From Candidatus Eiseniibacteriota bacterium (GTDB taxonomy: Bacteria; Eisenbacteria; RBG-16-71-46), in the NCBI GenBank assembly GCA_963717935.1, contig CAVQXP010000002.1, positions 288,001 through 352,000 of the forward strand: a stretch of 64,000 bases of DNA, read 5' to 3'. Shown piece after piece: positions 39,001-45,000 of this stretch (the stretch's first letter is position 1; each line of letters opens with the position of its first letter). Position numbers: made by a program.

Positions 39001-42000
39001 GCGTGCCCCAGCCGCCCACCAGGCCGCCGTTCTCCACGAGGCCGACCACGTGGTTGCGGACGAAGAACGGTCGGCCGGCCCGGTCGTGGTCCGTGGTCTC
39101 CAGGCCGGAGAGCCGGAAGCCCGACCGGACGAACTCCAGGGCGGTCCCGAGCTGCTCGTCGTGGGAGCCGGGCATCAGGTCGGTGAGGTGGCGACCGACC
39201 AGCTCGCCGGGCCGCTCGAAGCCGTGGCGGCGGGCGCAGGCCCGGTTGCACTCGGCGAGGCGGCCGCGCTCGAGGATCGCCGCAGCCAATTCGTCTTCGG
39301 GCAGGTCGAGGGGCACCGGCGGGTCGAGTTCGAAGCGCCAGATGCCGTCGGCGGCGGTGGCCACGAACCAGCGGTAGCGCTGCTCGGTCATCCACGACGA
39401 TGCCGCGGACGGTGCGGCTCCGGAAGGTTCCCGTCCCCCTTCGTCCCGAATCGGGTCCACTCGCCGGAGTGTCCCCTCCACCTCCCCGGACGATTCCTCG
39501 GGGTGGCATGCCCATTCGTTCATGCGGTGCTCCGCCCGTGGAGGAGGGGCCGACCGTGCTCGGGGAGACACAGGGTGGGGTGGCGTATCCGCAAGCCTGC
39601 TACCCGGGGTTTTCGGCAGCCAGGGCGGGTGGCTTGAGTCCGGACCGCGTCCCGCAACTAGTCGCGTGCGGTGGCCACCCGTGGCGCGGACATCCGTCTG
39701 CCCAGCACGAACGCCAGCACACCCACGGACGCGATCATCCCGGCGGCCACGAGCAGCGTCGCAGCGGTGCCGATCAGGGGCGTGGCGATGCCGGCCACGC
39801 TCTGCCCGCCGAGCAGCACCAGGCGCATCAGGAAGTCGCGCGCGCCGAAGACGCGCCCGCGCTGGCGGGGCTCGGTGCCCTCCTGCAGCATGGTCTCGGG
39901 CAGCACGAAGACCGGGGCCGCGCCCAGGCCCACGAGCAGCGCGGCGCCGGCGAACACGGCGAAGCGGGTCGAGACGGCGAAGCACACGAGTCCCGGCGGC
40001 GGCCAGCACGAGGCCGACCCCCAGGATCAGGTGGCGCGGGTGTGCCCGTCCGCGCGTGTTCACCCACCAGGTGCCGAAGGCGCTGCCGATGCCGACGGTC
40101 GCCATGAGCACGGCCAGGCGTTCCATGCCCGCCATGCGCCCCGGCGGCCCGCTGGATGTGCTGGTTGCCCGCCACGTGCAGGAACCCGCCGCCCGCCCAC
40201 ACCGCGGCGAGCGCGGTGAGCGCCAGCACCAGGACCGGGGTGGAGCGCACCAGCCGCCAGCCCTCGGCGACCTCGTGCAGGTAGTTGCGCATCGAGACCG
40301 GCGCGAGCGTGGCGTGGCGGGTGGCCGGGCGGTAGCGGATGAGCAGCAGCGAGACCACCGAGACCAGGTAGGTGACGCCATTGATGTAGAGCGCCGGCCC
40401 CCAGCCCCAGTGGTCCACGACCCAGCCACCGAGGACGACGACCGCGGTCCCGGCGATGCCGGCGCCGGCCAGCAGCGCGTTGGCGAGCAGGAGCTGCCGG
40501 TCGGGAACGATCTCGGGCGTGACGGCGCTCTTGGCCGGCAGGAAGAAGACGTTGCAGGTGAAGAGCGCGAAGACCAGCAGGTTGACGGGCCAGACGCTGC
40601 GGGTGGCGAGGTAGGCAGACCGGGATGAGCACGACCAGCAGGGCGCGCAGCGTGTCGGAGATGACCATCACGCGCTTGAGGTTCCAGCGGTCCACCCAGG
40701 CGCCGACGAAGGGCGAGAACAGCAGCACGGGCAGCAGTTGGGCGATGCCCAGCAGCCAGAGCAGGAGGGAGGACTCGCGCGGCGCCCGAGAAGTGGCTGG
40801 TGTGCTGGAGCAGGAGCCCGTAGAGCGCGACCACGGTCAGGCGCTCGCCCGAGATGGAGACGAGCTGGCCGCCGATCAGCGCGAGGAAGTTACGCTGCCG
40901 CAGCAGCGGGCGCGGCGGTGCTTCCTCGGCCATGACGCCTAGGCCGCGCTGTGGACCGCTCCGCGGCGCGCGAGCACGTCGCGGTAGACCGCCTCGATGC
41001 GGTCGGTGATGTGCGGCCAGGCGAACTCGAGCGCGCGTACCCGGCCGCGCCGGGCGAGGGCCGCCCGCCGTTCCGGGTCCTCGACCAGTGCGACGATCGC
41101 CTCCGCCAGCGCGGGCACGTCACCGGGGGGCGAGACCACGCCGTTCACTCCGGGCTGGACGACGCTGCGATAGCCGGGGATGTCCGAGGCCACCACCGCG
41201 CGCTCCGCTGGCCATGGCCTCGACCAGCACGATGCCGAAGCTCTCGTGGCCGAGCGCGGGGGAGACGAAGATGTCGCCGGTCGCGTACCAGCGCGGCAGA
41301 CTCGTGGCTCGGGACGTGTCCGACGAAGTGCACGTGCGCCCGCACCGCGGGGGCGACGGAGGCCTCGAACCGCCCCCTGCAGATAGGAGTCGCCCACGAC
41401 CAGCAGGCGCGCCCTCCCGTGCGTGCGCGCGATCACCTCGGGCAGGGCGTCCAGGAGCACCTGCACGCCCTTGCGGGGGTCGAGGCGGCCGACGAACAGC
41501 ACGTTCACCCGCCCGGGGTCGCGCCACTCGGGGAACGGCTCGACCGACGGATGGAAGCGCTCGGTGTCCACCCCGTTCGGGATGACGAGGTACTCGCCGG
41601 GGAAGTACTGTGCCACGAAATCGCGCGCGGTCTCGGAGACCGCGATCCGGGCGTCGAGGCGCTTCATTCGCGCGGCGAGCGGGCGGAGGAAGGCCTTGAT
41701 CAGGCGGCTCGGGCCGCTGGTGGTGTGGAAGGTCCCCACCTGAGGGCATTCGGCGGTCTCGACCGCGATCAGCGGCAGCGTGGGCACGAGCGGCGCGTGG
41801 GTGTGCAGGATGTCGAAATCGTGCCGCTTGAGCAGGCCGCGCAACTGGCTCCGGAGCCGAATGCCCACCGCCAGGTCCACGAAGGCCCCGTTGAAGGGGA
41901 TGAGCAGGTTGTAGCCGATGCGCTCGACCTCGGGGTCCGAGGGCGCCTCGCCGCGGCGGAAGTGGCTGGTGATGATGGTGACCTGGTGCCCGCGCCGGCG

Positions 42001-45000
42001 CAGTTCGATCGCGGTGTGGTGGACGTGCTCGGTGACGCCGCCGTAGCGGGGGTAGTACGACTGCGAGACGATCCCGATCCTCACGCCTCGACGCTCCGCG
42101 CCGCTCCGGCCGCTTCGGTCTGCGCGGCGGGGGAGCCTTCCCACAGGGGCCGGAAGATGCACCACTGGTCGAGGTGCTCCCGGATGTGCCGCTCGGAGAT
42201 GGCGGCCACCTCGGCGTTCAGAGCCGCGGTGTGGGGGAAGCGCGCGGGATCGAGTGCCGGCTCCATCACGATGCGGAACCGACCGGGGCCGAGGCGCTCG
42301 CAGTAGCCGCAGATGATGAGTGCTCCAGTGCGCTGGGCGAGCACGCCGGGACCGGCGGGAAAGCGGGTCTCGCGCCCGAAGAACTCGACCGGCACGCCGT
42401 GGCTGTAGATGTCGCCATCCACCATGAGTGCCACCAGGTCGTTGTGCTCGAGCGCGCGGAGCAGCTTGCGGAAGCCGTCCTCGGGGGAGACCGTGTGAAT
42501 GGCCAGCTCCGACTTGGTCTCGCGCACGGCCGGAGCCAGCCAGCGGCCGAGCTGCACGCCGGCCACCGCGTGCATCGTGTAGCCCCAGTGGGCGAGCACC
42601 ACGGCGGCCAGCTCCCAGTTGCCGATGTGCGTGCAGGTCAGGATCACGCCGCGTTCCCGGGAAACCGCCTGCTCGAGGTGCTCGCGCCCCACCACCTGGA
42701 CCGAGCGCAGCAGGCCCTCCCGGCTCAGGTGGGGCAGCCGGAAGAACTCGAACATCATGCGGTTGTAGCTGCGCATCATGCGGCGCACGACCTGCAGGCG
42801 CTCGCGTCGCGAGGCGCGGGGCATGGCGGCCGTCAGGTTGGCCAGCGCGGCGTGACGGCGGGCGGGGAAGAAGCGGAAGTGGACCTCGGTGAGGAGGTCG
42901 GCCAGGGCATAGCCCAGCCCCAGGGGCATGCCCGCGACGAGCGCGGTGAGCCAGCCGTAGACGAGTCGAGACATCCCGTTCCCCACTCCCTGCTCGCTGA
43001 CGGCGCGCGACAGGCCGGCCGAGCAGGCCGAAACTACTTTCCGGCCGGAAGGGATGTCAAGCATCAGCCCGCCGCGTCCTGCGGCTCCGGGGCTCCTCAG
43101 TGCGCGACGGGGCATGCACTTGCGCGCCCAAGACCTCACGCTCAGAACCGTTGACCGGGCACGGCGGGCGGAATAGGATGCCCTCTGGCGTCCGAGATGC
43201 CGGAGGTCCGCCCCGACCTGCGGGAGGGTTGCATCATGGGCAGTCAGAAGATCATGCGTTGCGAGATCCGGCGCGTCGGCAGCACCGGGCCGATGACGCG
43301 AGCGGTTCGTGCCCCTCGAGATCTTCGGCCTGTGGGAGTACCTGATGACCCACAAGCACGACTTCGAGGTGCTGAACGCGCGGGCCTCGCTCTGGCTCGA
43401 CATGGAGGATTCCCCCGACTCGGCCTACGGAGAGACCCAGTTCGAGCGGGTCACCGAGGTCACGGCCTTCGTCTACTCCGAGCGCGACGGGATGTTCACG
43501 CGGGCGCGGCGCTACTTCGCCAGCGACCGCTGCGAGGAGCTCAAGCGCATCTTCCTGAGCCACTACGAGAGCGCGGGCGGCCGCCTGCAGCCCCACCTGC
43601 GCGAGCGCCCCGGCATCTTCCTGCACCGGGAGAGCGCCCTGGTGGAGGTCGACCCCTGACCGGGAGGCCGCGGCCACCGCGCGCCCCGCCGCGAGGCCGG
43701 CGGTCGCCGCTGGCGGGGGCCCGCCGCGGCTCCTCACGGCCGCGCCCCGGCGGCCTGGACCCGCCCCGGACCGTCCCGGGCCCGTCGCCGGGCCGGCGGC
43801 CCGCGCCGGCCCCGCGCGGCGCCGCCCCTCCTTTTCGCTAAGGGAACGCCCGCCGCCGCGCCGATAAGTCCCTCTGACAGGGTGGCGCTCCGCATCGTGA
43901 CGTTCACCTGTCCGGCCGCCTCGAGCGATCAGGACAGGGCTCCGGGCGGGCGATGCAGAGCGCTCCCAACCAGCGTGGCGACCCCATCCGGCGGGTCCGG
44001 CCGTCCCGATCACGGGCCTTCGTGCCCTGCGATCACCAGGACGGATCGTCCGCCCTCAAGGTCCCTGTGGAGAAAGGGCGGCAAGGGGCTCCATGGGATC
44101 CGGCTTTGTGACAGGGTGGGGTCGCACCAGGAGGGACGCGCCGTGGTTGTCGTGAGCTACTCGGGCAAGGAGATCAACGCGAAGCTCGTCTACTACGGGG
44201 CGGGCTTGAGCGGCAAGACGACGAACCTCGAGGCCATCTACGAGGCGGTGCCCGATACCAGCCGTGGCAAGATGGTCAGCATGAAGACGCAGTCCGACCG
44301 GACGCTCTTCTTCGATCTGCTGCCGCTCGACCTTGGCGAGATCATGGGGTTCAAGACCCGCTTCCTGCTCTACACGGTGCCGGGCCAGGTGTTCTACAAC
44401 GCCACCCGCAAGCTCGTGCTCAAGGGAGCGGACGCCATCGTCTTCGTCGCCGACAGCGAAGTCGGCAAGATGGAGGAGAACAAGGAGAGTCTCGCCAACC
44501 TGAAGACGAACCTGGCCGAGTACGGCCTGAGCCTCGACGAGATCCCGTGGGTGATCCAGTACAACAAGCGCGACCTGCCCAACGTCTACTCGGTCGAGGA
44601 GCTCGACGCCGAACTGAACGACGGCGGCAAGGTGCCGAGCTTCGAGGCGGTGGCCACGACGGGCAAGGGCGTGTTCGAGACCTTCCGCGGCGTGTCGCAT
44701 CTGCTCATGGAGAAGGTGACGAAGGACCTGCGCCGCACGCCGTTCGCGAGCGCGGCCTCGCGCCCGGTTCCGGGCGGTGTGGAGGCTCAGGCGAAGTCCG
44801 AGCCATCCCGCACTCAGGCTGCGTCGCCCCTGGCGCCGCCAGTGGTCCATCGCGCGCGAGGCCCAGGAGACCGTCGCCCGCGAGATCGGCAGCGCGGCGG
44901 GCGTCGACTACGGGCGCGAGATCGACTCTTCCGGACGAGACCGCGCCGCGGCTGAAGGCCGTGGCCGCCGCCGCCGGTGTCCCCGCCGCTCCCTGTCGTG

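What a model noticed while it worked through the whole genome (the two positions that open the first line are those of the whole stretch)
40939..43064. Mycobacterial-type phosphatidylinositol mannoside (PIM) genes patA-pimA plus ino1/PIP synthase in an LPS-making diderm
g00459-g00458 are PatA- and PimA-like genes in the mycobacterial order (patA then pimA), and an archaeal/actinobacterial-type PIP synthase with Ino1 (C4:862213-864250) supplies phosphatidylinositol. The genome also has the full lipid A pathway with a separate LpxL, so this Gram-negative lineage is predicted to make acylated PI-mannosides, lipids thought to mark Actinomycetota.
Evidence so far: g00458: the only PDB matches at E<=1e-14 are PimA (4N9W/2GEJ, E 2e-41, call 178). 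g00459: PatA structures E 4e-21 versus LpxL 1e-9; NCBIfam best model PIM acyltransferase 146 bits versus 106 for lauroyl transferase. Ino1 59% to mycobacterial Ino1, PIP synthase 37%. PimA orthologue in 15 of 15 family genomes, adjacent to patA in 17 of 17 loci; CDP-OH transferase next to Ino1 in 68 of 101 order genomes. Paper search found only mycobacterial work.
(Added by a program. Inside this text positions count along the whole contig: contig position 288,001 is position 1 of the stretch shown here. "Call 12" and the like, gene names such as g00115 and contig names such as C1 are that model's own, and its searches are not shown. The text may have been shortened before it was handed on; [...] marks where a part breaks off. 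The agent that wrote the report below was given it as the finding of a first reader that could run no searches.)

Follow-up and report, generated by a model that had tools for sequence, protein, structure and literature searches.

The report
PimA/PatA-like glycolipid operon in LPS bacteria
An uncultured Gram-negative lineage (Candidatus Eisenbacteria) carries a conserved three-gene operon related to the enzymes that start mycobacterial inositol-mannoside lipids, plus a transporter, so it probably makes an acylated sugar-inositol lipid, although the exact sugar and acceptor are unproven and similar genes occur in other non-actinobacterial phyla.

Summary
PimA is the best solved match by 110 bits. 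A pimA-like gene is in 133 of 151 Eisenbacteria genomes, an inositol-phosphate synthase in 142 of 151. PIP synthase and lipid A genes are present. Close relatives in Chloroflexota lie beside ino1 or PIP synthase in 66 of 71 loci, which supports PI as acceptor. Against an exact PIM: the enzyme is a separate subclade lacking PimA Tyr9, Arg68, Asp253 and Lys256 in all or nearly all of 21 family members, and the PatA mannose-lining aromatics differ. Best reading: an acylated monoglycosyl-PI (0.6; mannose about 0.4), with the MFS a candidate flippase. The genes are not unique to this lineage: WOR-3 59 of 61. JGI already labels them PI mannosyltransferase. Ten paper searches found no report in Gram-negatives. 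The frameshifts are private to this assembly. This scan found the same kind of operon before on other DNA.

The parts
42081..42974 (-). patA-like acyltransferase (PF03279), 297 aa, intact
   Evidence: Groups with actinomycete PatA and Chloroflexota operon PatA, apart from LpxL. His126 and Trp130 kept; Asp131 to Glu, Glu200 to Asp; Tyr83 and Trp84 to Met (read from the alignment).
40939..42084 (-). pimA-like GT4 glycosyltransferase (380 aa in intact relatives); start overlaps the patA stop by 4 bases
   Evidence: (Foldseek top four hits are PimA; TM 0.86 to 2GEJ)
41206..41380 (-). Stretch read out of frame because of three single-base insertions private to this assembly (about 41379, 41300, 41207)
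   Evidence: absent from an independent roughly 95%-identical contig and from same-genus genomes
39658..40933 (-). MFS transporter, 5 bases after the pimA stop; third operon gene, candidate lipid flippase; four single-base insertions in this assembly (about 40780, 40615, 40137, 39993)
   Evidence: Directly after pimA in 24 of 30 Eisenbacteria loci and 15 of 25 WOR-3 loci.

Best explanation
patA-pimA-MFS is a conserved membrane-lipid operon that makes an acylated monoglycosyl-phosphatidylinositol. Ino1 makes inositol-3-phosphate and the PIP synthase next to it makes PIP (both elsewhere in the genome). An unidentified phosphatase gives PI. The GT4 adds one sugar from a nucleotide donor at the cytoplasmic face. 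The PatA-like enzyme acylates the product through its His/acid relay, and the second PatA-like gene may add another chain. The MFS may move the lipid across the inner membrane. Mannose is the likeliest sugar (about 0.4 overall for a true AcPIM1-type product); glucose or GlcNAc are open. Shown: genes, coupling, conservation, homology, catalytic residues. Inferred: substrates, product, the roles of the MFS and the second PatA.
For: PimA is the best sequence and fold match by a wide gap, unlike a control GT4. Donor-side and catalytic residues Gly15, Gly16, His118, Arg196, Arg201, Lys202, Glu274, Ser275, Phe276, Ile278, Glu282 and loop Asn63 are kept in 21 of 21 family sequences (residue roles from PMC9202250, passages). 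The membrane helix is basic (net +3.3). patA lies next to pimA in 28 of 30 close loci and 10 of 10 loci of more distant families. Fusions exist: PatA-PimA (P0157, P0238), PimA-CDP-alcohol phosphotransferase (P0161), PimA-acyl carrier domain (P0237). Relatives in Chloroflexota and similar genomes sit with ino1 or PIP synthase in 66 of 71 loci, with all three of patA, ino1 and PIP synthase in 29; their Ino1 is mostly 63-77% identical to this genome's. The PIP synthase keeps the CDP-AP aspartates and the inositol-phosphate arginines (read; PMC6506517). An inositol-phosphate synthase is in 142 of 151 phylum genomes and a PIP-synthase orthologue in 66 of 71 order genomes. A GDP-mannose pyrophosphorylase-like gene is present.
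Against: Acceptor-side Tyr9 is Ser and Arg68 is Asp in 21 of 21 family sequences. Nucleotide-side Lys256 is Leu in 21 of 21 and Asp253 is Ser in 18 of 21. Tyr9 is described as strictly conserved in PimA and tied to acceptor specificity (PMC2988379); K256A abolished activity (PMC13533801). The clade is separate from actinomycete PimA. PatA scores 145 against a cut-off of 209, 0 of 151 phylum genomes pass that cut-off, and its mannose-lining Tyr83 and Trp84 are not kept (PMC8519569). In this genome the operon is unlinked to ino1 and PIP synthase. Ino1 is nearly universal in the phylum, so co-occurrence cannot discriminate: family f7 has it (7 of 7) but no pimA at 1e-45 (0 of 7). The sugar-binding motif is general to GT4. 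The GDP-mannose gene match is below cut-off and rings in 12 of 14 control genomes. No lipid data exist.
Confidence: 0.6

Rival explanations
1. The diderm subclade has changed its acceptor. The pair glycosylates and acylates another lipid (inositol-phosphoceramide or another sphingolipid-type lipid, PG or DAG), and the PI genes serve plain PI.
For: Both acceptor determinants changed, one by charge reversal. The operon is unlinked to ino1 here, and no ino1 or PIP synthase lay near pimA in 9 WOR-3-type and other loci. In 4 family genomes a block with a class I/II aminotransferase, a DAG-kinase-like gene, a PlsC-type acyltransferase and a second CDP-alcohol phosphotransferase lies between pimA and the MFS.
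Against: That block is not found in this genome (only a distant aminotransferase and a dehydrogenase match). Many Chloroflexota proteins inside ino1 operons also lack Arg68 (24 of 68) and Lys256 (40 of 68), so these two changes are compatible with an inositol context. The phylum keeps the PI genes.
Confidence: 0.25
2. The acyltransferase is a late lipid A acyltransferase (LpxL/LpxM role) and the GT4 decorates the LPS core.
For: PF03279 is the lipid A acyltransferase family, the genome makes lipid A, and a lauroyl-transferase model scores 106.6 bits.
Against: A separate LpxL-like gene scores best on lipid A models and is separated from the PatA side in the tree (support 0.986). The same pair is common in Chloroflexota, where the one genome tested had no LpxC. 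The operon is far from the lpx cluster.
Confidence: 0.06
3. The locus is a decaying pseudogene set or a binning artefact.
For: Seven single-base insertions in pimA and the MFS.
Against: An independent roughly 95%-identical contig lacks all seven. Same-genus genomes are intact and syntenic. Housekeeping lpxB and lpxK are split in the same way. The gene is in 133 of 151 phylum genomes.
Confidence: 0.02

Closest known systems
Actinomycete pgsA1-patA-pimA operon (early PIM pathway; Tsukamurella locus L140; M. smegmatis PimA 4N9W/2GEJ, PatA 5F2T/5OCE)
   Same: patA directly followed by an overlapping pimA; same folds and catalytic residues; long IP-binding loop with Asn63 and a basic membrane helix; mycobacterial-type Ino1 (477 bits) and PIP synthase in the genome.
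   Different: PIP synthase is next to ino1, not in the operon. The third gene is an MFS rather than the NUDIX/LemA-like gene (bioRxiv 10.64898/2026.07.15.738315, passages). Tyr9, Arg68, Asp253 and Lys256 are not kept. No GT87/PimE over cut-off and no clear PimB'. The host encodes lipid A. There are two PatA-like genes.
Chloroflexota inositol-glycolipid operons (PIP synthase-ino1-patA-patA-PHP-pimA, or ino1-pimA-PIP synthase); uncharacterised, seen here
   Same: PimA-like 33-44% identical; Ino1 mostly 63-77%; two PatA-like genes per genome in the long form.
   Different: One operon; Tyr9 kept in 68 of 68; PHP phosphoesterase in 37 of 71 loci; MFS in 0 of 71; monoderm hosts (general knowledge; no LpxC in the one genome tested).
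Bacteroides thetaiotaomicron inositol lipid cluster BT_1522-1526 (PMC9246714, passages)
   Same: A Gram-negative bacterium making PI through MIPS and PIP synthase.
   Different: No mannosylation or acylation step was seen in the passages read; its MIPS is distant from this Ino1 (7NWR, 36 bits).
MFS lipid transporters: LplT and the LplT-like domain of Aas; LtaA glycolipid flippase (LtaA recalled, not from a call)
   Same: The MFS scores weakly on the Aas and LplT models (70 bits for the Eisenbacteria protein on an Aas model; 50 bits for a WOR-3 protein on LplT) and is coupled to lipid enzymes.
   Different: The best model is the generic H+ antiporter family TIGR00900 (134 bits, cut-off 320); all models are far below cut-off; no PDB match at E 0.1.

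Membership tests
PimA (GDP-Man:PI alpha-1,2-mannosyltransferase) | GT4/GT-B fold with PimA as the nearest solved structure | tested here: met
   189 against 79 bits; Foldseek ranks 1-4; control
PimA | Phosphate- and sugar-binding residues Gly15/16, Arg196, Arg201, Lys202, Glu274-Ser-Phe, Ile278, Glu282, His118 | tested here: met
   21 of 21 family sequences; these are widely shared among GT4
PimA | Acceptor determinants Tyr9 and Arg68 | tested here: not met
   Ser and Asp in 21 of 21; a Tyr follows at the next position
PimA | Guanosine-side Asp253 and Lys256 | tested here: not met
   Ser in 18 of 21, Leu in 21 of 21
PimA | IP-binding loop 59-70 (absent in PimB') and basic amphipathic helix | tested here: met
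   Aligned without gap, Asn63 in 21 of 21, Tyr62 to Phe; helix net +3.3
PimA | Clusters with actinomycete PimA in a tree | tested here: inconclusive
   Inside a PimA-like group of 132 rows (0.946) but outside the 61-row actinomycete-plus-Chloroflexota clade (0.989); only two actinomycete rows; deep nodes weak
PimA | Transfers mannose from GDP-Man to the 2-OH of PI | not testable with these tools
   Needs an enzyme assay
PatA (PIM acyltransferase) | NCBIfam NF005919 over its cut-off of 209 | tested here: not met
   145.5 bits, though the best model; Tsukamurella PatA scores 414
PatA | His126 base with an acid relay (Glu200) | tested here: met
   His116 and Asp186, a conservative change (read from the alignment)
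PatA | Mannose-lining Tyr83, Trp84, Trp130, Phe160, Arg164 | tested here: not met
   Only Trp130 is kept; Met, Met, Val and probably Lys at the others
PatA | Nearer to PatA than to LpxL; coupled to pimA | tested here: met
Early PIM pathway | PI supply: Ino1 and PIP synthase | tested here: met
   (both below their equivalog cut-offs: 525 of 638; 156 of 180 and 131 of 170)
Early PIM pathway | PimB' second mannosyltransferase | tested here: inconclusive
   Only the best of about 20 other GT4 matches was compared with PDB; it shows no PimB' preference
Higher PIM / LM / LAM pathway | GT87 mannosyltransferase (PimE type) | tested here: not met
   Best 19.7 bits, cut-off 25; genome 93% complete
LPS-making diderm | lpxA, lpxC, lpxB, lpxK, kdtA, lpxL | tested here: met
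   lpxB and lpxK split; lpxL best on lipid A models but under cut-off

The most novel reading that the evidence does not exclude
LPS-bearing phyla (Eisenbacteria, WOR-3) make an acylated glycosyl-phosphatidylinositol with a distinct PimA subclade and export it with the operon-coupled MFS. That would be a PI-glycolipid flippase of a kind still unidentified in mycobacteria. PI glycosylation would then be a widespread bacterial pathway of which the actinomycete PIMs are one derived branch, nested next to the Chloroflexota enzymes.
Probability: 0.22. Interest if true: 0.78.

Novelty: new variant of a known kind. Interest (0 to 1): 0.5.

Why it matters
PI-mannosides are treated as actinobacterial lipids, and bacterial inositol lipids in general as rare (PMC9246714, passages). 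A near-core PimA/PatA-like operon in LPS-encoding phyla would widen that picture and would matter for the use of such lipids as taxonomic or environmental markers. The changed acceptor and nucleotide residues give natural variants for testing what sets PimA specificity. The conserved neighbours point at steps that are still open in mycobacteria: the flippase (PMC8519569, PMC12041525), the second acyltransferase (PMC12041525) and the PIP phosphatase (PMC6506517). The candidates are the MFS here, the second PatA paralogue, and the PHP gene of the Chloroflexota operons. All of this is prediction from uncultured genomes.

Tried and rejected
(1) PatA-family genes next to a second-type ino1 in distant families looked like extra linkage. 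The three examined group with LpxL in the tree and lie in the obgE context, so I rejected them as support. (2) Phylogenetic profiling with Ino1: the mycobacterial-type model misses 47 of 151 genomes, but Pfam finds a synthase in 142. Ino1 is too widespread to discriminate. (3) The NF040950 phylum search (79 of 151) misses this genome itself at 1e-25 because an insertion splits the match, so I did not use it; one search replaced it. (4) A PHP orthologue in this genome: only an 81-83 aa N-terminal match. The plasmid search for actinomycete PHP homologues returned none among 8 records, which is not evidence of absence. (5) No promoter or terminator was found for the operon strand. (6) RNA run X16 has only short contigs with no DNA control, so it does not show expression. 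Habitat shares are 0.27 or lower and were not used. (7) The first tree had no outgroup and its careful search was unfinished; not used. (8) In one search the Asp253 column was mapped one position off; one search corrects it. In one search two of three queries were in the wrong frame; replace them. (9) Ten paper searches listed no report of PIMs or PimA/PatA in Eisenbacteria, WOR-3 or other Gram-negatives. The library lacks most subscription journals, and no supplements were read. A Dictyobacter description lists PI and unidentified glycolipids (PMC12453558, passages). I recall PIMs in the description of Thermosporothrix hazakensis (Chloroflexota); this is from memory and one search did not find it. 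(10) No complex prediction was run, since binding is not claimed.
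Full report
Observation. The window is G000:C2:288001-352000, a 93%-complete, GC-rich genome whose proteins cluster with Candidatus Eisenbacteria (Atlas). On the minus strand lie a 297-aa PF03279 acyltransferase (42974-42081), a GT4 (42084-40939) whose start overlaps the acyltransferase stop by four bases, and an MFS transporter (40933-39658) that begins five bases after the GT4 stop. The GT4 has three single-base insertions and the MFS four, compared with a complete same-genus genome. 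A 3.25-kb, roughly 95%-identical contig from an independent run lacks all seven, and lpxB and lpxK are split as well. I read these as assembly errors and used an intact orthologue (L003, P0004) for analysis.

Identity of the enzymes. P0004 matches M. smegmatis PimA at 189 bits over its whole length; the next GT4 structure scores 79. The AlphaFold model (pLDDT 95) has PimA chains at Foldseek ranks 1-4. The genome's next-best GT4 gives 61-66 bits to seven structures alike, so the gap is specific. The acyltransferase prefers PatA to LpxL in PDB (79 against 41 bits) and in NCBIfam (145.5 against 106.6, cut-off 209). The genome has three PF03279 genes: this one, a second PatA-like gene (111 against 65 bits) and an LpxL-like gene that scores best on lipid A models. 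In a 63-row tree the operon enzymes group on the PatA side with actinomycete and Chloroflexota proteins, apart from LpxL. JGI names already call the GT4 relatives phosphatidylinositol alpha-mannosyltransferase, so the label is not new; these names are automatic.

Supply and envelope. C4:862213-864250 encodes a PIP synthase and Ino1. Ino1 matches the mycobacterial enzyme at 477 bits. The PIP synthase matches PgsA1 and RsPIPS best and keeps the four aspartates and the arginines equivalent to Arg94, Arg155 and Arg195 (read; roles from PMC6506517, passages). LpxA, LpxC and KdtA pass their cut-offs and lie in one cluster with lpxB and lpxK. A GDP-mannose pyrophosphorylase-like gene is present but below cut-off. 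No GT87 passes its cut-off. No PIP phosphatase could be named.

Distribution. The GT4 is found at 1e-45 in 133 of 151 phylum genomes, 58 of 59 in the family. An inositol-phosphate synthase is in 142 of 151 and the PIP synthase in 66 of 71 order genomes. patA is adjacent in 28 of 30 close loci, 4 of 4 order- and class-level loci (two of them also among the 30) and 10 of 10 more distant loci. The MFS follows directly in 24 of 30 close loci. In four of the six exceptions it follows about 7-8 kb later, behind an inserted lipid gene block; one exception ends at a contig edge. It was present in only 2 of the 10 distant loci. These tallies include the unpublished genome G026 (L026); no conclusion depends on it. 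Beyond the phylum, all 150 listed 50%-identity clusters score higher than mycobacterial PimA does (221 bits or more, in a different library). A named scan returned the best 80 of 600 capped candidates, mostly Chloroflexota. In the 71 loci that I grouped as Chloroflexota and similar (they include two Dormibacterota and one record titled Acidoferrum), PIP synthase is within 6 kb in 61, ino1 in 58, either in 66, patA in 37, a PHP phosphoesterase in 37 and the MFS in none. In the other nine (four named WOR-3 or Stahlbacteria, four titled only 'bacterium' that I grouped with them by tree and context, one gammaproteobacterial record) the MFS is present in 7 and ino1 or PIP synthase in none. In the WOR-3 phylum 59 of 61 genomes have the GT4, often in two or three copies; the MFS is adjacent in 15 and patA in 5 of the 25 best loci (1.5-kb flanks). 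Four of those WOR-3-type genomes have an LpxC match (one over cut-off) and Ino1; the one Chloroflexota genome tested has Ino1 and no LpxC. Fusions link the GT4 with PatA, a CDP-alcohol phosphotransferase and an acyl carrier domain (4 of 11 long hits scanned).

Residues and tree. The phosphate- and sugar-binding residues of PimA are kept in all 21 family sequences, as are Asn63 of the IP-binding loop and a basic membrane helix. Tyr9 is Ser and Arg68 is Asp in 21 of 21; Lys256 is Leu in 21 of 21 and Asp253 is Ser in 18 of 21. These residues are reported as critical or specificity-linked (PMC9202250, PMC2988379, PMC13533801; passages). Chloroflexota proteins keep Tyr9 in 68 of 68, Arg68 in 44 and Lys256 in 28, so only Tyr9 separates the groups cleanly. 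A FastTree tree was built from 142 rows and 375 columns. It holds five family members, a subsample of Chloroflexota loci, representatives up to P0215, two actinomycete PimA and seven outgroup GT4, rooted on a Nocardia MshA-like row (my label, from its motif). It puts the actinomycete enzymes inside a Chloroflexota-rich clade (0.989) and the Eisenbacteria proteins in a separate branch of a PimA-like group (0.946); deep nodes are weak. In PatA, His126 and Trp130 are kept and Glu200 is Asp, while Tyr83, Trp84 and Phe160, which line the mannose (PMC8519569, passages), are replaced.

Mechanism. [quoted passage not shown] PI as acceptor rests on gene context in relatives and on fusions. Mannose rests on homology alone, so a true AcPIM1-type product is about 0.4. 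The MFS is a generic H+ antiporter-family protein with weak Aas/LplT-like scores and no PDB match. Its retention beside pimA in two LPS-encoding phyla and in none of 71 Chloroflexota-type loci makes it a candidate flippase (about 0.3, inference). The main rival (0.25) is a changed acceptor. A lipid A role (0.06) and a pseudogene (0.02) are unlikely.

Comparison and novelty. It works like the early actinomycete PIM module but fails several membership tests for PimA and PatA, so I file it as a new variant, not a member. Ten searches of the paper library listed no description in Gram-negative bacteria; coverage is incomplete and no supplements were read. PI itself is known in Bacteroides (PMC9246714, passages) and Dictyobacter (PMC12453558, passages). 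The flippase, second acyltransferase and PIP phosphatase are described as unidentified in mycobacteria, with EphE a recent phosphatase candidate (bioRxiv 10.64898/2026.07.15.738315, passages). This scan has earlier notes on the same kind of operon in two related genomes and 29 notes that match my five search words, of which the eight shown concern Chloroflexota operons. I consulted them after my own analysis, and they are not independent evidence.

Verdict. The operon is real and conserved, and it is probably an inositol glycolipid operon in an LPS-encoding phylum. It is less lineage-specific and less surely a mannoside than first claimed, and it has a testable transporter. Interest 0.5.

Noticed in passing
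L149-L152 (G022:C1, G010:C37, G001:C5, G017:C26), between pimA and the MFS: A block of about 7-8 kb: Zn-dehydrogenase, DAG-kinase-like gene, unknown gene, class I/II aminotransferase (serine palmitoyltransferase-like by my reading), PlsC-type acyltransferase, a gene without Pfam match and a second CDP-alcohol phosphotransferase. It looks like a sphingolipid-type cluster inserted in the operon (ORFs scanned from three of the four loci). Not found in this genome.
   Followed up: partly
L037, L039, L045, L046 and others, about 5200-6000: A PHP-family phosphoesterase sits between the second patA and pimA in 37 of 71 Chloroflexota-type loci (34 with patA); candidate PIP phosphatase. No orthologue in this genome.
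   Followed up: partly
G000:C4:2112187-2112984 (L137:7071-8015): A second, stand-alone PatA-like acyltransferase; it forms its own Eisenbacteria clade that keeps the Arg-Asp after the relay acid. Candidate for a second acylation.
   Followed up: partly
WOR-3 genomes, e.g. G206:C3:150060-152320, G192:C3, G186:C1, G197:C16: Two or three PimA-like paralogues per genome, some in tandem; a paralogue might add a second sugar in place of PimB'.
   Followed up: no
P0130, P0367, P0393: PimA-like proteins carry Patescibacteria or Nomurabacteria names, notable for a group thought to lack most lipid synthesis (general knowledge).
   Followed up: no
Eisenbacteria families f7, f8, f9, f11, f13, f14, f15, f4: The phylum uses two unrelated Ino1 types: the mycobacterial type in 104 of 151 genomes and another type in most of the rest. 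Family f7 has Ino1 and PIP synthase but no pimA at 1e-45.
   Followed up: partly
G005:C32:17832-18962, G001:C47:2998-4134, G022:C17:75123-76181: Second, stand-alone pimA copies. The G022 copy has the actinomycete/Chloroflexota-type Pro-Tyr motif and lies near an LPG-synthase-TM gene and a CDP-alcohol phosphotransferase.
   Followed up: partly
window 43151-43659 (+): A small gene divergent from patA with no NCBIfam match (its G004 counterpart has no Pfam match), apparently frameshifted here; a sigma-70-like site lies at 43151-43179.
   Followed up: no
G000:C4:859142-861466 (-) and C2:273554-275935 (+): GT-C-type genes (PMT_2 family two genes upstream of the PIP synthase; TMEM260-like with TPR repeats) that suggest periplasmic glycosylation with a lipid-linked sugar.
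   Followed up: no
G000:C4:866592-867275: An MtnX-like HAD phosphatase three genes downstream of ino1; not assigned, a possible PIP or inositol-phosphate phosphatase.
   Followed up: no
window 28966-36066 and 43882-54042: The surroundings look like ordinary core genes by their translations (ftsA, ftsZ, a TPR protein, recG, rpmB; an MglA-like GTPase, csrA, two-component and sigma-54 regulators, FlhG-like and FliA-like genes); names are my reading, not tested.
   Followed up: no
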